Shown one piece after another: positions 7,540-17,538 of a DNA stretch of 42,736 bases. This stretch comes from a virus. Under the pieces are notes generated by a model. It was not told where the DNA came from and ran no database searches. It saw nothing but the letters and a program-made list of their open reading frames with translations. The position numbers were made by a program, and so were the translations under genes. Each line of letters begins with the position of its first letter. The stretch's first letter is position 1. The stretch lies in the UHGV virus genome UHGV-0389216. One strand, given 5' to 3'.

Positions 7540-8607
7540 TTATTGAAATTTATCTCGGATGAATTGCTGCGATGGTTTTTCAATGAATATATATGACATA
7601 TAGCTAATTGCCATTAATGTAAGCATGAATAAAATGAATACATTGGAGCTGTAAAAAAGATCGCGTCCATAGCCAATCCTGTCAGCTAAATAAACAGCAA
7701 TGATTTGCAAAGGAAAATGTAAAAGATAAGATGAATAACTGATATCACCCAACCATTCAATTTTCTTCCCAAAGTCGTTTCGCATTGCGCTAATTGATAC
7801 AAGGAAAAATATTATGGAGGTAAATCCAAATAAAATAATTGAGAATATATCTGCTACTTGCAGGATAAAAATAACTCCCCACGAGATTAATAGAAAAACA
7901 CAAGCGAAAATAAAAAATGATTTTGTGCCAATATTTTTTATGAACGCAATCGTAATTTTATAGGTCAGACCACCAATAAAGAAAGAGAATGCGCCGATCA
8001 TTATGGGATTGTTAATTTTGAAAAAGTAGTACGACAATGCAACTATTAAAATTGATATGAATGTTGTTTTTGATGTGAACTTGCATAATATAAAAAATAT
8101 CATGTACATAAGTACTTCAATCGACACGGACCATGTCGGTGCGTTGAAGGACCAACCTCGCTCAAATCCCCATGATTGAATCATCAATAAATTCAGAATG
8201 GCATGGTAAATGTCATTCATAGGATAAACAAAAAAATAATTATAACTTTTAAAGAAAATAATTTGTAATATTACCACGACAGCAAATGTAAATATATAAA
8301 GTGGATATAATCTACTGACACGGTTAACTATAAAAGTTTTTGCTGAGGTTTTATTGCTGTGTATATTGTCAGCGTATAGATAAAAAAATATGAATCCAGA
8401 AATCATAAAAAACAATTCGACAGCATATAAACCGTAATGATAAAAGACGGAAAAAAATTCATAAAAAGGTTGGCGGTTTATGATTATGTCAGATGCAGCA
8501 TTCTTTTTCATAAAAAAATGTTGCCAATGCCATAACACAACTGAAAGTGCGGCAAATCCTCTCAGAACATCTAGGGTATATATTCTTTTCCCAAAAACAT
8601 TCGTCAC
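7540..8607 (-). CDS. acyltransferase family 3 membrane protein, O-antigen acetylase-like
   Basis: 355 aa, GTG start. N-terminal LDVLRGFAALSVVLWHWQHFF motif and about 10 hydrophobic helices as in Oac/OafA-type acyltransferases; strongly AT-rich; opposite strand to tail genes. Confidence 0.75.
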   Translation of the reverse strand: MTNVFGKRIYTLDVLRGFAALSVVLWHWQHFFMKKNAASDIIINRQPFYEFFSVFYHYGLYAVELFFMISGFIFFYLYADNIHSNKTSAKTFIVNRVSRLYPLYIFTFAVVVILQIIFFKSYNYFFVYPMNDIYHAILNLLMIQSWGFERGWSFNAPTWSVSIEVLMYMIFFILCKFTSKTTFISILIVALSYYFFKINNPIMIGAFSFFIGGLTYKITIAFIKNIGTKSFFIFACVFLLISWGVIFILQVADIFSIILFGFTSIIFFLVSISAMRNDFGKKIEWLGDISYSSYLLHFPLQIIAVYLADRIGYGRDLFYSSNVFILFMLTLMAISYMSYIFIEKPSQQFIRDKFQ

Positions 8608-8849: not shown

Positions 8850-10260
8850 CGCTGACTCACACCTCATTTCCTGTGCGGGCTTTAAGCTCAAAGAATTATT
8901 CAGGTTTAGCGAGTCACGGTCTTACCTGTCGTTGTCATCACTCTGGCCGCCAGAGCAACCTTTCAGTATTCACCCTTTCATTAAAAGTTAATATTTATCG
9001 GTATCAGCGATTAATATGGTCTGATACTGACATGATTCTTGTCGTATTTACTTCCATGAGCTGCTATCGCCCATACTGTTCGTGCCAGTTTGTTTGCCAT
9101 GGCGACGATTGCCACGCTGGCTGGACGACGTTTTTTCAGTTCGGTTATCCACGGACCAGGTTCTTTGGTCAGTAATGCTGCCGCCCTTGCGCCATGAATA
9201 AACAAGGCTCGCAGATATGTATCACCACGTTTGCTTATCCCCAGCAGGCGGATTTTCCCTCCTGAGCCAGTCTGTTTGGGCACCAGACCAACATAAGCCG
9301 CGAACTCTCGCCCTGATTTAAACGCTGATGCTTCCCCCATGGTGGCCACCGCTGCCGTCGCAATAAGTGGCCCAACGCCGGGAATATCCAGCAACCGCTT
9401 ACAGGTTTCATTCTGTTTCGCCACGCTGGTAAGCTGTTTTTCAATATCCTCTATCAGTGAGTCCAGCTCATTCAGCCGGTTGTACTGGTTTTCCAGCACA
9501 GTAATGAGATACGGTGGCAGTCTCTCTTTCATCCGCTCCAGTGCTTCAGGGAACTCCCGCTCCATTGCTGCCCGACCTTTGTGAATTGTTTCACCAAATT
9601 CCAGGAGCGTGCCGTGCAGGGAGTTAATCTGCATGGTGCGGAACTTCACCAGTTGTCTGCGGGAACGATGCAGAACCAGTACCGACTGCTGTTCTTCTGT
9701 TTTGACAGCGATTTCCTTGCCGGGCTGTTGTACTGCCATCCAGATAGCCCGGGCATCCATAACATCGTTTTTATTACCCATGACGAACGCTTTAACGAAG
9801 CGGGCCTGCAACAACCGGACTTTATGACCCAGCTTTGTCAGTTCACGTGCCCAGTGCTGCGAGCCTCCACAGGCCTCCATACCAATCAGGCAGGGTTCCC
9901 GATTACAGAAGAACATCAGAAAATCCTGACGACGCAACTGCTTATCAATCACTTCACCTGTGTGCTCGTCGATGAAGTGAACCTGAATGACATGTTTTGC
10001 GATATCAACGCCAACCGGTGTATATTTCATTTGTGGAGTCTCCAGTCTGAAGGAGCTTTATGCATCCCGTATTGGGCACTATGATGCCGGAAATCTGCGA
10101 GGCTCCACACCTTCCTGTATTTCCCTTCATCTATCACTGTGCACCTTACTTAATGGGGGGGATGTGTTCATTACATTTCATGTATACCAGATGAAAGTGC
10201 ATGTTCTATGAAACAGGGTTTTGCCTGGAGTTTGAAGGGTTTTAAAGATTATACCTGTTT
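8850..10260 (-). mobile_element. IS110-family insertion sequence (boundaries approximate)
   Basis: Contains a single IS110-type transposase ORF with about 160 bp 3' and about 230 bp 5' non-coding flank. Exact ends not determinable by eye. Confidence 0.5.
9011..10030 (-). CDS. IS110-family transposase (DEDD-type)
   Basis: 339 aa starting MKYTPVGVDIAKHVIQVHFIDEHTGEV with ...GMEACGG...NDVMDARA..., the N-terminal DEDD fold pattern of IS110/IS1111 transposases; C-terminal domain follows. Confidence 0.85.
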   Translation of the reverse strand: MKYTPVGVDIAKHVIQVHFIDEHTGEVIDKQLRRQDFLMFFCNREPCLIGMEACGGSQHWARELTKLGHKVRLLQARFVKAFVMGNKNDVMDARAIWMAVQQPGKEIAVKTEEQQSVLVLHRSRRQLVKFRTMQINSLHGTLLEFGETIHKGRAAMEREFPEALERMKERLPPYLITVLENQYNRLNELDSLIEDIEKQLTSVAKQNETCKRLLDIPGVGPLIATAAVATMGEASAFKSGREFAAYVGLVPKQTGSGGKIRLLGISKRGDTYLRALFIHGARAAALLTKEPGPWITELKKRRPASVAIVAMANKLARTVWAIAAHGSKYDKNHVSIRPY

Positions 10261-11276: not shown

Positions 11277-11334
11277 TATAAGTACTCGCTAATATTGAAC
11301 GATATATATATCAAATTATTATGAAACTCGTCAG

Positions 11335-11613
11335 CTACTGGAGAAGGCTACCTGAACTTCGAGCTATTCCTGCATCCATATAGTTGATGGTCTTCTGGAG
11401 CTCTTCGATTAGGGCAACAGCTTTTGCTCGAGAAATGCATATTAGTTGATCCGGAAATTCTTGTAAGGGCCAGTTTGGTATACAGGCCATGTTATCAGTG
11501 AAGGATGCAGACAAGTAAACTTCATTGGTAACCAGAGAATAGCTTACCTCAAAATTGGTGAGTTCCGGCAAACTGCTAACGTTTGACTCTTTTCTGCGCA
11601 TAATATTATCCAT
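11335..11613 (-). CDS. hypothetical protein (start uncertain)
   Basis: Open frame runs to 11778, but the first 55 codons translate the tandem 12-mer repeat (LLNVLLNVLL). ATG at 11613 (MDNIMRRK...) is proposed as start; no clear SD. Confidence 0.35.
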   Translation of the reverse strand: MDNIMRRKESNVSSLPELTNFEVSYSLVTNEVYLSASFTDNMACIPNWPLQEFPDQLICISRAKAVALIEELQKTINYMDAGIARSSGSLLQ

Positions 11614-11750
11614 GACTGTAATTATATACAGGTGATGGTCTTCAATTTCGAAGAGGGAGTCAAGGGGAGTCTCAAATGAACCGTTATAGAAAGGGGGGGA
11701 TCTTTGTGTTGCTGAACTTATGCAAAATTTTTCGCACCATAAATCCAACA

Positions 11751-11782
11751 ACACATTCAATAACACATTCAATAACACATTA
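11751..11782. repeat. tandem direct repeat, 12-bp unit ACACATTCAATA (2.7 copies)
   Basis: ACACATTCAATA ACACATTCAATA ACACATTA read directly, in the AT-rich region upstream of int. Confidence 0.7.
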
Positions 11783-12081
11783 CCGTATCATCATGAAAAT
11801 AAATATATTTTTATTTAATTTCACACATATCACAATTAATACAGCGTTTAGTAATTAGTAAAGACATTTCAATGGATTACCGTTAAATCATTTTAAAATC
11901 AGTAAGTTGTATCGAGTTTGTATGCTTTACTGTCATTAACTTACTGTATGTTGATCCAGTGTATTTAACCTTGATAAACTCAGTCCAGCAACACAAAACC
12001 GCAACACATTGCATTTTGTCCCGTAGAAAAGACTTGTATGTGTGAGCTTGTTTTCTGCGCCTACGCAGATAAGGATTGAGA

Positions 12082-13479
12082 ATGCCGCGCACTGTAACAC
12101 ATAATCCGGATAGCCCCAATAATGACGATGTTTTAGCCGCATCTGAAAAATGGGACGCCTGTAAACCCCCCTATACCAGCGCACACATGAAAATCTGTGT
12201 TGCTGCCGCCAAAATCATCCTCGCTGCTTCCGGCGTGGCTCGCCGTTCCAAATACGAAAAAGAGAACTATCTCCGTATCGATTTCAGCAAAGCCGGTAAG
12301 GTTACATTTTACGCCGAGTTTCCAAAAAAGATGGGCCTCAAGGGTAAAAAGCTCGGCGAGTGGCCGGAGCTCGCTATCCAGCTGGCGCGCGAAAAAGCGC
12401 TAGGTATGGCTGACTGTGGCCTGCGGGCAGAGTCCGTACATGCAGCGCTGGAAATGTACCGGGATGACCTCAAAGCCAAAGTCGCCCGGCAGAAGCTGAG
12501 CCCGGACAGTTTCACAACCTACGGGGTGCGTATCGACCGGATTAAAGCAACGTTCGGCGAGCGCGAGGTGTTCAGCGACGTAACATACAATCGGCTGGTG
12601 GAAGTGCTGGACGAGTGGATCGCTACTCGCTCGAACAATAACGCCCTGGAGTTGTTTGCCGAGCTCCGTCGGTTCTGGAAGTTCTGCGCACCTACTCTTT
12701 GCAACGGCCGCAATGTTGCCGCCAGTCTGCCAGATGATTATGTTTCCTCCCGCGTACAGAAACCTACCCCCACACGGCTTTTTACCGATATTGAATCAAT
12801 CGCCCGACTCTGGCTCAATGTTGCTGCCTGCACCTCTGTACACCAGAAGAATGCTGTTCGCTTCATGATCATCACTGGCGTTCGTCCGATTAATGTCCAT
12901 AACCTGCGCTGGGACTACGTTCACGAGGAGGCTGGTGAAATTGTTTATCCGGAAGGGGTTATCGGCATGCGAGGGGCTATGAAAACACAAAAGGCTTTCC
13001 GCCTGCCGATAACGCCTGAGATCCGGCGGATTATCGACGAGCAGAAAGCCTGGCGTGATTCAGTTCCTGAGTGCAACAGGGATTATGTATTTTTGCAGCC
13101 ACGTGATCCAATGCAGCCATTTTCAAAACGATCACTGGATAAGCTGGTGAAAACATACAGCCCGGACGGGGCTGTAAAAGGAATAAAACATGATGGGACT
13201 GTTAAAGGGAAAGACGGTGCATTTAATACGATGTGCCGTAAATTCCTTAAGAGCAATGTTATTGCCTTGATGAAGGAAAGAGGCTATTCCCGATCAGACC
13301 GAAGGGAAATCAGCCTCCTTTGCCTTCACCACTCCAGTAAGTCAGATGACCCGATGGCAGAACATTACGACTTTTCTGATGAGATTTTACAGGAAGAGAT
13401 TGCGTTAAAGCGCGAAGCTTTCGAGGCTCACGAGCGGAGCATACTTGCGCAGGTGGCATTGCTACGGCGGCGAGGTTAA
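12082..13479 (+). CDS. int: tyrosine-type site-specific integrase
   Basis: ATG 12082 preceded by AAGGA. Contains ...MIITGVRPINVHNLRW... and C-terminal ...LCLHHSSKSD...AEHY consistent with R/H/Y catalytic boxes; adjacent convergent AlpA/Xis-like gene. Confidence 0.7.
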   Translation: MPRTVTHNPDSPNNDDVLAASEKWDACKPPYTSAHMKICVAAAKIILAASGVARRSKYEKENYLRIDFSKAGKVTFYAEFPKKMGLKGKKLGEWPELAIQLAREKALGMADCGLRAESVHAALEMYRDDLKAKVARQKLSPDSFTTYGVRIDRIKATFGEREVFSDVTYNRLVEVLDEWIATRSNNNALELFAELRRFWKFCAPTLCNGRNVAASLPDDYVSSRVQKPTPTRLFTDIESIARLWLNVAACTSVHQKNAVRFMIITGVRPINVHNLRWDYVHEEAGEIVYPEGVIGMRGAMKTQKAFRLPITPEIRRIIDEQKAWRDSVPECNRDYVFLQPRDPMQPFSKRSLDKLVKTYSPDGAVKGIKHDGTVKGKDGAFNTMCRKFLKSNVIALMKERGYSRSDRREISLLCLHHSSKSDDPMAEHYDFSDEILQEEIALKREAFEAHERSILAQVALLRRRG

Positions 13480-13676
13480 TACCGGCTGCGACACTTTTGA
13501 ATAAAAGCATCGACATTGCGGCGCTCATAACGAACTACTTTTGCACTGAAACGAATTGGTGCCAGGATAGCCCGATGACGATGCTTAATATTCCACTCAC
13601 ATAGCGTTTTCTGTGTAATACCTAACTTTTGGCATACTTCATCCGGGGTGAGTAAATCGTCGGGTTTCTCGCTCAT
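13476..13676 (-). CDS. AlpA/Xis-family small DNA-binding protein (putative excisionase)
   Basis: 66 aa; ...LLTPDEVCQKLGITQKTLCEW... is a MerR/AlpA-like helix-turn-helix; last gene of early-left operon, abutting int. Confidence 0.65.
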   Translation of the reverse strand: MSEKPDDLLTPDEVCQKLGITQKTLCEWNIKHRHRAILAPIRFSAKVVRYERRNVDAFIQKCRSRY

Positions 13677-16776: not shown

Positions 16777-17538
16777 TTACGAGGAAGCGTTAGCTATTTG
16801 AGCTTGTGTAAATTCGAAACCAGAATTTTGTAACCGTTGCACTAGACGAGGAACTGTTTCACGTACATGGTCGTTGAAATTCAGATACAAAATCCCGTTA
16901 GCATCAGAAGGCTGTTCTAGGTGCTGTTTCTGAAGGATTGCTACATTGCTGCGCCCTAAGGACGAAAGAAGCATACCCATCTCGAGTACAACGTTCTGTC
17001 TTGCGCGGGGTTGGATTTCTGCTTCACCGGCGCGCTTTGAGTATCCCATATCATCAGGTGTCAAAAGAACAATCCCGAAACGGGTAGCAGTTTGTCCTTG
17101 CCCAATTTCACGTTCAAGCTCTTCAATAATGGTGAGTCCAGTCCCTCCCGTATTCTGCAAAATGAAATGGTCTGGTAATCCAAGTTTATGAAGGATTAGC
17201 TCAAGTTGTTCCTTTGCAGTATGGTCATGGCCGTGAACAATGAATATCTTTTTGGGAAGCTCAGATGGCTGTTCTACGGCTAGTGGTGTTGCCGTGGGGG
17301 GCGTTCCTAAATGGGACATTATTGCAGTTTCAACATTGGGACGTTCTTGAGGGTTACCTTGAAACTGAATGGTCCGGGTGGTGTAAAGGTTAACAATTAC
17401 GCCATTCGTTAAACGATAGCAGTCATAAGTCTCACGCTGTTCGTGGGAAAAATTGGTGAACCCACACTCCCTCAAAAAGTCAGGAAAAGATTCTCTCGGG
17501 TATGGATAGGTGATCGGCATTTCAGTTAGTTCCTGCAT
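16777..17538 (-). CDS. TIR-like (Cap12/PycTIR-type) nucleotide-binding domain protein with unassigned N-terminal domain
   Basis: 253 aa; C-terminal domain KKIFIVHGHDH...GIVLLTPDD...RQNVVLEMGMLLSSLGRSNVAIL matches the TIR-like predicted nucleotide-binding fold signature as I recall it; N-terminal 85 aa unassigned. Confidence 0.5.
   Translation of the reverse strand: MQELTEMPITYPYPRESFPDFLRECGFTNFSHEQRETYDCYRLTNGVIVNLYTTRTIQFQGNPQERPNVETAIMSHLGTPPTATPLAVEQPSELPKKIFIVHGHDHTAKEQLELILHKLGLPDHFILQNTGGTGLTIIEELEREIGQGQTATRFGIVLLTPDDMGYSKRAGEAEIQPRARQNVVLEMGMLLSSLGRSNVAILQKQHLEQPSDANGILYLNFNDHVRETVPRLVQRLQNSGFEFTQAQIANASS

What the first reader, a model, noticed from the sequence alone, without database searches (positions are those of the whole stretch)
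11751..12081. Tandem 12-mer repeats and AT-rich tract upstream of int: candidate attP / arm-type binding sites
ACACATTCAATA occurs 2.7 times in tandem about 300 bp upstream of the integrase start, inside a roughly 300-bp AT-rich gene-free stretch. Tyrosine integrases bind repeated arm-type sites flanking the attP core. Because int sits in the middle of the phage map here, attP is expected in this interval.
Basis: inference. Interest (0 to 1): 0.45.

Follow-up and report, generated by a model that had tools for sequence, protein, structure and literature searches.

The report
Phage attachment site with integrase arm repeats
The AT-rich stretch upstream of the integrase gene is this phage's chromosomal attachment site, which targets the start of the bacterial ferredoxin gene yfhL, and the tandem 12-base repeats are most likely docking sites for the integrase; it is an ordinary kind of site, mapped here in more detail.

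Summary
A 12-nt unit is repeated 3.0 times at 11746-11781, 300 bp upstream of int.

Aligning the window (attP) with attL, attR and the empty K-12 site gives an 18-bp crossover core, TTCACACATATCACAATT (11820-11837), 39 bp right of the repeats. The target is codons 11-16 of the ferredoxin gene yfhL, not a tRNA. The phage carries a replacement yfhL 5' end, so the gene stays intact in lysogens.

The repeat motif (y)AACACAww also occurs inverted at 11703-11711 and twice directly on the int-proximal arm (11989-11997, 12002-12010). In relatives whose integrases are only 43-79% identical, the arm sequence is otherwise unalignable. Direct copies still sit exactly 59 and 47 nt left of the core in five lineages, and the inverted copy at -105/-106 in four. 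The int-side pair lies at about +169/+182. Two lineages use a variant motif (AACGCA, ACCACA) at all arm sites.

The integrase shows sub-threshold matches to an N-terminal arm-binding domain, and its model best matches full-length lambda Int. Binding is inferred, not shown.

The third repeat copy is a private 12-bp duplication; relatives have two. This is a new, well-defined member of a known kind.

The parts
11703..11711 (-). Distal P-arm site, an inverted copy of the motif (CAACACAAA on the minus strand). It marks the left edge of the att module.
   Evidence: It forms a 16-nt inverted repeat, 94% complementary, with 11982-11997 (I1). Unrelated phages that share this int, the Stx2b prophage L103 and L104, become homologous to the window only from about 11700. 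An inverted copy lies at -105/-106 from the core in the E. coli type, L117, OS31 and L151. In the window it lies at -116 because of the extra 12-mer.
11746..11781 (+). Tandem 12-mer array, read as three direct arm-type sites: CAACACATT at 11749-11757, TAACACATT at 11761-11769 and TAACACATT at 11773-11781. They lie at -71, -59 and -47 from the core.
   Evidence: TRF and the repeat finder D1/D2 report the array. The -59 and -47 copies are conserved in position in five lineages. The -71 copy was absent from all twelve best E. coli genome matches listed, which span 64 nt against the 76-nt query, and from the attP contigs L012 and L036.
11782..11819 (.). A/T-rich spacer between the P-arm sites and the core. 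It is a possible site for bending or for an accessory factor (Xis, IHF or Fis).
   Evidence: It is A/T-rich with A- and T-tracts in the window, L117, OS31 and L149. The function is inferred only.
11820..11837 (.). attP core (common core O), TTCACACATATCACAATT. It is identical to attB inside yfhL codons 11-16, and strand exchange occurs within it.
   Evidence: Four-way alignment of attP, attL (IAI1), attR (H10407) and attB (K-12). Lysogen matches start exactly at 11820, and attR matches end at 11857. In the Thalassotalea element the attL/attR identity shrinks to TCGCACATATC, which points to the left part, 11821-11831, as the crossover region.
11838..11867 (-). Phage-borne replacement of the yfhL 5' end (codons 1-10; ATG at 11867-11865 on the minus strand).
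   Evidence: The sequence is diverged but homologous to native yfhL. In the IAI1 lysogen the yfhL CDS across attL is intact, 86 aa, 84/86 identical to K-12 with A2S and K8R. In free phage it is an 18-codon stub.
11897..11909 (+). IHF-like site AATCAGTAAGTTG (consensus WATCAANNNNTTR) between the core and the P' sites.
   Evidence: It is the only match to WATCANNNNNTTR in the att region. In 24 relatives the ATCA and TTR positions are kept while the N positions vary, and AATCA is at least 97% conserved in 64 unique sequences. Binding was not tested.
11943..11960 (.). LexA-box-like palindrome ACTGTATGTTGATCCAGT in the divergent yfhL'/int control region.
   Evidence: It is the only ACTGT-N9-CAGT in the window, against 0.16 expected. 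CTG and CAGT are at least 97% conserved. The left half varies (CTGT, GTGT, TTGT) in distant relatives. The function is inferred.
11989..12010 (+). P'-arm pair of direct arm-type sites, CAACACAAA (11989-11997) and CAACACATT (12002-12010), at +169 and +182 from the core and 13 nt apart.
   Evidence: AACACA and GCAACACA are at least 97% conserved over 64 unique upstream regions whose Int identity ranges from 50 to 100%. The offsets are the same in OS31 (+169/+182), L144, L145 and L148 (+170/+183), and are shifted in L143 (+180/+193) and L151 (+157/+170).
12038..12048 (.). Conserved block ATGTGTGAGCT of unknown role. It contains an inverted copy of the left half of the core.
   Evidence: Inverted repeat I5, TCACACATA / TATGTGTGA. 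It is at least 97% conserved and stays unchanged in L151, where the arm motif has changed. No sigma-70 consensus lies there.
12082..13479 (+). int, a 465-aa tyrosine integrase. Codons 5-7 (12094-12102, GTAACACAT) carry another copy of the motif.
   Evidence: PF00589 at 30.4 bits. PF13356 Arm-DNA-bind_3 matches weakly at residues 58-107 and in 26 of 31 homologs. The AF2 model has pLDDT 84.8, and its best fold matches are full-length lambda Int. The motif in codons 5-7 is at least 97% conserved, but its covariation with the arms is inconsistent.
13476..13676 (-). 66-aa HTH_17 protein, a candidate excisionase (recombination directionality factor).
   Evidence: PF12728 at E 1.3e-5 (25.8 bits, just under the 27-bit cut-off), TIGR01764 excisionase domain weakly, and PHROG excisionase families. 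The homolog in phage OS31 is annotated as excisionase.

Best explanation
Window 11700-12050 is the attP of a temperate SEN34-like myovirus. Its tyrosine integrase (12082-13479) recombines an 18-bp core (11820-11837) with the identical sequence in codons 11-16 of the host ferredoxin gene yfhL. The phage supplies a replacement yfhL 5' end, so the gene is rebuilt at attL.

The tandem 12-mers are arm-type sites of the P arm. Each carries (C/T)AACACATT, which the N-terminal arm-binding domain of Int would bind while the central and catalytic domains hold the core, as in lambda and P4. The full set of sites is:
- one inverted distal site (11703-11711);
- two canonical direct sites at -59 and -47, plus a private duplicated third at -71;
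- two direct sites at +169 and +182 on the int-proximal arm. A conserved IHF-like bend site lies between these and the core.

Shown here: the core, both junctions, the rebuilt yfhL, the motif distribution, its positional conservation, and the lineage-specific motif variants. Inferred: that Int, rather than the 66-aa excisionase-like protein, is the binder; the IHF bending; and any autoregulation of int by the P' sites.
For: Core and junctions. The match to 835 of 5426 E. coli genomes begins exactly at 11820, next to yfhL. The other prophage end matches up to 11857. The four-way alignment gives 18 identical bases.

Intact yfhL. The gene at attL is intact and 84/86 identical to K-12.

Motif distribution. 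All four AACACATT in 42.7 kb lie at 11750-12010, on one strand and flanking the core. The repeat finder groups the P-arm and P'-arm copies and finds the 16-nt inverted pair 11703-11718 / 11982-11997.

P'-arm footprint. The P'-arm AACACA hexamers are at least 97% conserved in 64 unique sequences with Int identity 50-100%, while the surrounding sequence diverges.

P-arm geometry. Direct sites lie at exactly -59 and -47 in five lineages: the E. coli type, L117 (79% Int), Serratia phage OS31 (76.5%), L151 (62%) and a 7.5-kb Thalassotalea element (43%). An inverted site lies at -105/-106 in the first four. The arms are otherwise only 36-42% identical in register.

Lineage-specific variants. All arm sites are AACGCA in L151. 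The P'-arm sites, the only arm recovered, are ACCACA in L147/L148.

Module boundary. The att module travels with int into unrelated phages, and its boundary lies just outside the inverted site.

The integrase. It has Arm-DNA-bind_3-like residues 58-107 (26 of 31 homologs hit, best E 1.7e-6). The model has a beta-sheet plus helix N-domain. Its best fold matches are full-length lambda Int.

Literature. The OS31 authors reported a 23-bp att in the ferredoxin gene and pfam13356 in Int (PMC7556043). Five arm-type sites are required in the P4-family IntS attP (PMC11963761).
Against: No binding data exist. The excisionase-like HTH_17 gene accompanies int in the window, OS31 and the four more distant loci where neighbouring genes were checked, so conservation and covariation cannot by themselves tell an Int site from an RDF site.

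The PF13356 match of this particular protein is below threshold (13.6 bits against a cut-off of 27).

The P' sites lie unusually far from the core (about 170-180 nt).

The arm motif (AACACA) resembles the left half of the core (CACACA), so binding by the core-binding domain is not excluded.

The motif copy inside int codons 5-7 does not covary with the arms in L151.
Confidence: 0.78

Rival explanations
1. attP is here, but the tandem 12-mers are binding sites for the recombination directionality factor (the 66-aa HTH_17 excisionase-like protein) or another accessory protein, not for Int. Head-to-tail sites about one helical turn apart, lying between a distal arm site and the core, are how lambda Xis and several winged-helix RDFs bind.
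For: The sites are tandem and direct with a 12-nt period, 47-59 nt from the core. An HTH_17 gene accompanies int in every element examined. RDFs of this fold bind attP and oligomerise head to tail (PMC11963761).
Against: The same motif, including its lineage-specific variants, occurs on both arms and in both orientations, whereas RDF sites are usually confined to one arm (general knowledge of lambda, L5 and P2). Int has an arm-binding domain that needs cognate sites, and no other repeated motif in the arms could serve. RdfS shows no clear consensus motif (PMC11963761), unlike the sharp motif seen here.
Confidence: 0.13
2. The array is a functionless slippage duplication, or a regulatory element of the neighbouring 92-aa ORF (11335-11613, minus strand), that happens to lie near attP.
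For: The third copy is a recent 12-bp duplication, absent from the best-matching relatives. The array lies upstream of the minus-strand ORF.
Against: The two canonical copies are fixed at -59 and -47 in five lineages whose arms are otherwise unalignable. The module is retained in phages that lack the 92-aa ORF (L103, L104). No promoter-like site was found there.
Confidence: 0.05
3. The true attachment core lies elsewhere, for example downstream of xis or at a tRNA. This is the refutation condition the first reader stated.
For: None found.
Against: Both prophage junctions map to 11820-11837 in many genomes. There is no tRNA in the window. The same arrangement is annotated independently for phage OS31 (PMC7556043).
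Confidence: 0.01

Closest known systems
Bacteriophage lambda attP (P-O-P' with arm-type sites P1, P2, P'1-P'3, and IHF, Xis and Fis sites) and lambda Int
   Same: A heterobivalent tyrosine integrase. The modelled fold matches full-length lambda Int best. A short core is flanked by two arms carrying repeated motifs. Tandem sites sit on one arm and separated sites on the other. An IHF-like site lies between the core and the arm sites. The int gene is next to the P' arm, and a small excisionase-like gene is next to int.
   Different: Only 14% sequence identity. The arm-binding domain is of the Arm-DNA-bind_3 (P4) type and is preceded by an extra two-helix N-terminal extension. The motif is AACACA, not the lambda arm consensus. 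The P' sites lie about 170-180 nt from the core. The target is the 5' coding end of a gene, which the phage rebuilds.
P4-family integrases and their attP sites: satellite phage P4 (Int and Vis) and ICEMlSymR7A IntS, whose 283-bp attP has five arm-type motifs TGKTGGTATC
   Same: The same type of arm-binding domain (PF13356). Several arm-type repeats lie on both arms, in both orientations. attP lies immediately upstream of int, so arm sites overlap the int control region. In P4, PAI I536 and ICEMlSymR7A, Int represses its own promoter (PMC7286903, PMC11963761). The ACCACA variant in L147, read on the other strand (TTGTGGTAT), matches the IntS motif at 8 of 10 positions.
   Different: P4-family elements usually target tRNA 3' ends, whereas this family targets yfhL. 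The PF13356 match is sub-threshold for this protein. No autoregulation has been shown here.
Serratia phage vB_SspS_OS31 (MT843276; PMC7556043)
   Same: A homologous system. Int is 76.5% identical. The att is a 23-bp direct repeat in the host 2x[4Fe-4S] ferredoxin gene. The excisionase gene is adjacent. Arm sites lie at the same offsets, -106, -59, -47, +169 and +182.
   Different: It is a siphovirus of a different lineage with unrelated arm sequence outside the sites. It has two, not three, tandem copies. The published description stops at the 23-bp repeat and the Int domains; none of the passages retrieved from the paper describes arm-type sites.
yfhL-integrated prophages of E. coli (Bobay et al. 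2013, PMC3603311; Stx2b prophages, PMC10675304 and PMC12029490)
   Same: The same integration locus. The Stx2b prophage of STEC1590 carries the same att module as the window, from the inverted site to the core (L103).
   Different: Those papers list yfhL as an insertion site, and one lists it among genes 'disrupted' by integration. Here the gene is shown to be rebuilt intact, and the attP anatomy is resolved.

Membership tests
attP of a heterobivalent (lambda/P4-type) tyrosine integrase | A short core sequence identical in attP and attB, at which both prophage-host junctions lie | tested here: met
   18-bp identity at 11820-11837 in attP, attL, attR and attB. Junction coordinates come from 835 and 160 genomes.
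attP of a heterobivalent (lambda/P4-type) tyrosine integrase | An adjacent gene for a tyrosine recombinase with the catalytic R-K-H/x-R-H-Y residues | tested here: met
   PF00589 at 30.4 bits, above the cut-off of 27.1. R268, K301, R386 and H417 are invariant and Y429 nearly invariant in 31 homologs. The fold matches lambda Int, XerA and Cre.
attP of a heterobivalent (lambda/P4-type) tyrosine integrase | An additional N-terminal arm-binding DNA-binding domain in the integrase | tested here: inconclusive
   PF13356 matches residues 58-107 of this protein only at E 0.075 (13.6 bits, below the cut-off of 27). It matches 26 of 31 homologs, best E 1.7e-6. The model shows four strands plus a helix at 54-112. 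Full-length lambda Int chains align over more columns (382-403) than Int(75-356) chains (314-330). The domain was not searched on its own. The OS31 authors report pfam13356 in the homolog (PMC7556043).
attP of a heterobivalent (lambda/P4-type) tyrosine integrase | Repeated arm-type motifs on both arms, outside the core | tested here: met
   for the window. Positions are conserved in five lineages, and lineage-specific motif variants occur.
attP of a heterobivalent (lambda/P4-type) tyrosine integrase | Int physically binds the arm motifs, and they are required for recombination | not testable with these tools
   This needs EMSA or footprinting, plus integration assays with mutated sites.
attP of a heterobivalent (lambda/P4-type) tyrosine integrase | Sites for a DNA-bending host factor (IHF) between the arm sites and the core | tested here: inconclusive
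   AATCAGTAAGTTG at 11897-11909 fits WATCANNNNNTTR and is conserved at the consensus positions only. The pattern is not enriched window-wide (9 matches against 7.2 expected). No site was identified on the P arm.
   No tRNA or tmRNA in the window and no Rfam hit. The core lies in the yfhL coding sequence.
LexA (SOS) operator | A CTGT-N8-ACAG palindrome close to the consensus TACTGTATATATATACAGTA, located at a promoter | tested here: inconclusive
   11941-11960 matches 15 of 20 consensus positions, with CTG...CAG kept. It is unique in the window. The right half is conserved in all relatives and the left half is variable. No promoter was identified.

The most novel reading that the evidence does not exclude
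This integrase family keeps a rigid attP geometry from Enterobacterales to Alteromonadales: an inverted site at -106, direct sites at -59 and -47, and a direct pair near +170/+183. Meanwhile it switches the arm-site word in a lineage-specific way (AACACA, AACGCA, ACCACA). That would make it a natural experiment in co-evolution of an arm-binding domain with its sites. In addition, the P' arm may double as a control region in which Int, IHF and possibly LexA jointly govern both int and the rebuilt host gene yfhL, whose native promoter the prophage displaces.
Probability: 0.3. Interest if true: 0.5.

Novelty: new member of a known kind. Interest (0 to 1): 0.35.

Why it matters
It turns a listed insertion locus (yfhL) into a fully mapped attP with a core, both arms, candidate Int and IHF sites, and a module boundary. 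The integrase concerned is present in about 15% of complete E. coli genomes (835 of 5426), including Stx2b prophages.

The map gives exact prophage boundaries. Several deposited 'phage genomes' of this group include host genes.

It shows that yfhL is rebuilt rather than disrupted.

It provides a compact int-attP cassette of about 350 bp plus int, with a defined single-copy target, that could be tested as an integration tool.

The lineage-specific motif variants offer a simple system for studying arm-site specificity.

Tried and rejected
- A tRNA/tmRNA target was rejected: ARAGORN found nothing and Rfam found nothing at 11300-12300.
- A promoter scan of 11550-12150 gave only two weak plus-strand hits, both at or inside the int 5' end, fewer than in shuffles. 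No promoter is therefore claimed for int or for the rebuilt yfhL.
- A sequence search of the PDB and NCBIfam gave nothing for Int.
- A degenerate IMG/VR scan meant to collect attR ends returned mostly ferredoxin-side junctions (attL or empty sites). Only 2 of 35 hits were attR, L115 and L117.
- A tblastn search of phage records found only one homologous Int, in OS31.
- I looked for attR within 10 kb of int in L148 and L150 and found none. Only the small Thalassotalea element, L149, had one.
- I first read the AACACA inside int codons 5-7 as a further arm site that covaries with the arms (ACCACA in L147/L148). I rejected this as proven, because L151 has ACCACA there while its arms are AACGCA.
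- The window-wide count of AACACATT is not significant on its own (4 against 1.9 expected). The argument rests on clustering and on conservation in relatives.
- The conserved CATGTGTGAGC block was considered as an inverted arm-type site. This was rejected because it does not change where the arm motif changes.

Full report
OBSERVATION. The tandem repeat is real. TRF finds a single array at 11746-11781 with period 12, 3.0 copies and 95% matches, and it is the best-scoring array in the window. The sequence reads CAACACATT-CAA-TAACACATT-CAA-TAACACATT. It lies 300-336 nt upstream of the int ATG at 12082, in a stretch with GC 0.338. Exact 12+12 tandem duplications appear in only 2 of 200 shuffles of the window.

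WHERE THE WINDOW COMES FROM. The window is a temperate myovirus genome of the SEN34-like group. Over 79% of its right half it is 97.5% identical to 'Escherichia phage vB_EcoM-606R2' and its relatives. Those records are in fact prophage cut-outs that still carry the host genes yfhH, pgpC and tadA. The int region occurs in 835 of 5426 complete E. coli genomes, always next to yfhL, and the match begins exactly at window 11820. The sequence to the left of that point, 11300-11857, is found at the other prophage end, next to yfhH, in 160 genomes.

THE CORE.
- I aligned the window (attP) with attL of IAI1, attR of H10407 and the empty site of K-12. Exactly 18 bases are common to all four: TTCACACATATCACAATT, at 11820-11837.
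- The core lies in codons 11-16 of yfhL, a small 2x[4Fe-4S] ferredoxin gene.
- To the right of the core the phage carries a diverged copy of yfhL codons 1-10 and its own upstream region (11838-11867 and beyond). At attL the gene is therefore rebuilt. RefSeq annotates it as intact, and it is 84/86 identical to K-12 YfhL, with A2S and K8R.
- In the free phage the fragment is an 18-codon stub.
- yfhL is already listed as a prophage site (PMC3603311, PMC10675304, PMC12029490). A homologous 23-bp att in the Serratia ferredoxin gene was reported for phage OS31 (PMC7556043).
The suggested tRNA target is not.

THE REPEATED MOTIF IN THE WINDOW.
- All four AACACATT in the 42.7-kb window lie between 11750 and 12010, on the same strand: three in the array and one at 12003.
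- The repeat finder puts TCCAGCAACACA (11984-11995) in the same family as the array units. It also finds a 16-nt inverted repeat, 11703-11718 / 11982-11997, that brackets the core.
- Relative to the first base of TCACACAT, the sites are an inverted one at -116, direct ones at -71, -59 and -47, and direct ones at +169 and +182.

THE INT-PROXIMAL ARM IN RELATIVES. I collected int loci from IMG/VR, GTDB genomes and the protein collection. In 64 unique upstream regions, with Int identity from 50 to 100%, the two AACACA words are at least 97% conserved while the neighbouring intergenic sequence diverges. Their offsets are +169/+182 in Serratia OS31. They are +170/+183 in Psychrobium, Pseudoalteromonas and Celerinatantimonas, +180/+193 in Thalassotalea, and +157/+170 in L151. 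The two words are always 13 nt apart.

THE FAR (P) ARM IN RELATIVES. The far arm could be recovered in five lineages:
- the E. coli type (H10407, IAI1, the Stx2b prophage of STEC1590, L104, L012, L036, L115);
- L117 (Int 79% identical);
- phage OS31 (76.5%);
- the phage contig L151 (62%);
- a 7.5-kb integrative element of Thalassotalea (43%).

The arms are only 36-42% identical in register. Yet direct sites lie at exactly -59 and -47 in all five, and an inverted site at -105/-106 in four. In unrelated phages that share this int, homology to the window begins just outside the inverted site, at about 11700. That marks the left edge of the att module.

MOTIF VARIANTS. Two lineages use a different word. 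L151 has AACGCA at its eight sites on both arms. L147/L148 has ACCACA at its P'-arm sites, the only arm recovered. One word per attP is what a single sequence-specific binder would produce.

THE PROTEIN. Int (465 aa) passes PF00589. It has the invariant R, K, R and H and the nearly invariant Y of tyrosine recombinases. Residues 58-107 match the Arm DNA-binding domain PF13356 weakly. The match is below threshold for this protein, but 26 of 31 homologs hit it, with a best E of 1.7e-6. An AlphaFold model (pLDDT 84.8) shows two N-terminal helices and then a four-strand sheet plus helix, ahead of the core-binding and catalytic domains. The best structural matches are full-length lambda Int chains. 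A 66-aa HTH_17 protein with weak, near- or sub-threshold matches to excisionase families is encoded next to int.

MECHANISM. The most likely reading, with confidence about 0.78, is a lambda/P4-style intasome. Int would bridge arm-type sites (the 12-mers, the distal inverted site and the P' pair) and the core. A bend at the conserved IHF-like site at 11897-11909 would help bring them together. Crossover would occur in the left part of the core, because attL/attR identity narrows to TCGCACATATC in Thalassotalea.

What is shown is the anatomy, the junctions and the conservation. What is inferred is who binds. The main rival (about 0.13) is that the tandem pair is bound by the excisionase-like protein, which accompanies int in every element checked. 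The presence of the motif on both arms and in both orientations argues against this but does not exclude it.

THE THIRD COPY. The relatives examined have two tandem copies. These are the E. coli prophage ends read directly, the attP contigs L012 and L036, and the best-matching complete E. coli genomes. Among the 5426 genomes the twelve best matches listed each span 64 nt against the 76-nt query. The '2.7-3 copies' are therefore two canonical sites plus a private 12-bp duplication, which also moves the inverted site from -105 to -116. Its consequence is unknown. L151 shows that extra direct sites are tolerated.

OTHER CONSERVED ELEMENTS IN THE INTERVAL.
- A LexA-box-like palindrome, ACTGTATGTTGATCCAGT (11943-11960), is unique in the window. 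Its right half is conserved in all relatives.
- A block CATGTGTGAGC lies at 12038-12048. It contains an inverted copy of the left half of the core and does not change where the arm word changes.
- An AACACA sits in int codons 5-7. It is conserved at synonymous positions, but its covariation with the arms is inconsistent.

Because the prophage replaces the native yfhL promoter region, these elements may control both int and yfhL. That is inference only. The P4-family precedent is that Int represses its own promoter from attP (PMC7286903, PMC11963761).

COMPARISON AND NOVELTY. The system works like lambda attP and, more closely, like the P4-family attP sites. One example is ICEMlSymR7A IntS, whose 283-bp attP has five required arm-type motifs (PMC11963761). 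The integration locus and the 23-bp att of a homolog were already published. In the passages I retrieved, those papers did not describe the arm-site set, its geometry, the module boundary or the rebuilt yfhL. I file it as a new member of a known kind, of moderate interest.

Noticed in passing
window 11746-11757 (extra unit), compared with L002, L012, L036, L102, L103, L104 and L115: The window carries a third 12-mer copy. None of the twelve best matches listed among 5426 complete E. coli genomes has it, and neither do the attP contigs from IMG/VR. It shifts the distal inverted site from -105 to -116.
   Followed up: yes
window 11838-11867 (minus strand); L001 3788-4048: Integration replaces the first 10 codons and the promoter region of yfhL with phage sequence and leaves an intact 86-aa ORF (A2S, K8R). 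One survey (PMC3603311) lists yfhL among genes disrupted by prophages.
   Followed up: yes
window 11943-11960: A LexA-box-like palindrome, ACTGTATGTTGATCCAGT, lies between the rebuilt yfhL start and int. It is unique in the window, and its right half is conserved in all relatives. This raises possible SOS control of int and/or yfhL in lysogens.
   Followed up: partly
window 12038-12048: A strongly conserved block, CATGTGTGAGC, lies 35-44 nt upstream of the int ATG. It contains an inverted copy of the left half of the core and stays unchanged where the arm motif changes. Its role is unknown.
   Followed up: partly
window 12094-12102 (int codons 5-7): GTAACACAT keeps AACACA across 64 unique sequences. 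The third-position A is kept while the residue before Thr varies (V, A or I). Two lineages have GTACCACAA (Val-Pro-Gln). It is undecided whether this is a DNA site or a coding constraint.
   Followed up: partly
L074 (IMGVR_UViG_2554235145_000004), about 2400-2760: The host yfhL 3' part is joined to a 57-nt remnant of a P arm carrying one TAACACATAAC site, followed by the core and a P' arm. It looks like a deletion product of an earlier or tandem integration.
   Followed up: no
L004 (ON470579.1 vB_EcoM-606R2, record 1-2254): Deposited 'complete phage genomes' of this group (606R2; likely also 611R5 and 683R1) are prophage cut-outs. The 606R2 record includes the host genes tadA, pgpC and yfhH beyond attR.
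   Followed up: partly
L149 9619-17180 (Thalassotalea nanhaiensis CP134146.1): A 7.5-kb non-phage integrative element (int, Replic_Relax, AAA_25, HTH_17) uses the same integrase family, the same ferredoxin-gene target and the same -59/-47 arm sites. The att/int module is therefore not restricted to phages.
   Followed up: partly
window 9011-10030 (minus strand): An IS110-family transposase gene (PF01548 and PF02371) sits in the cargo region between the tail genes and attP. The corresponding interval of the IAI1 prophage has no IS annotated and is about 1.4 kb shorter.
   Followed up: partly
window 7540-8607 and 16777-17538 (both minus strand): Two low-GC cargo genes were noted. One is an Acyl_transf_3 acyltransferase, possibly for O-antigen modification. 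The other is a protein with a CAP12/Pycsar-type TIR effector domain (108 bits), a candidate anti-phage defence gene among the early genes.
   Followed up: no
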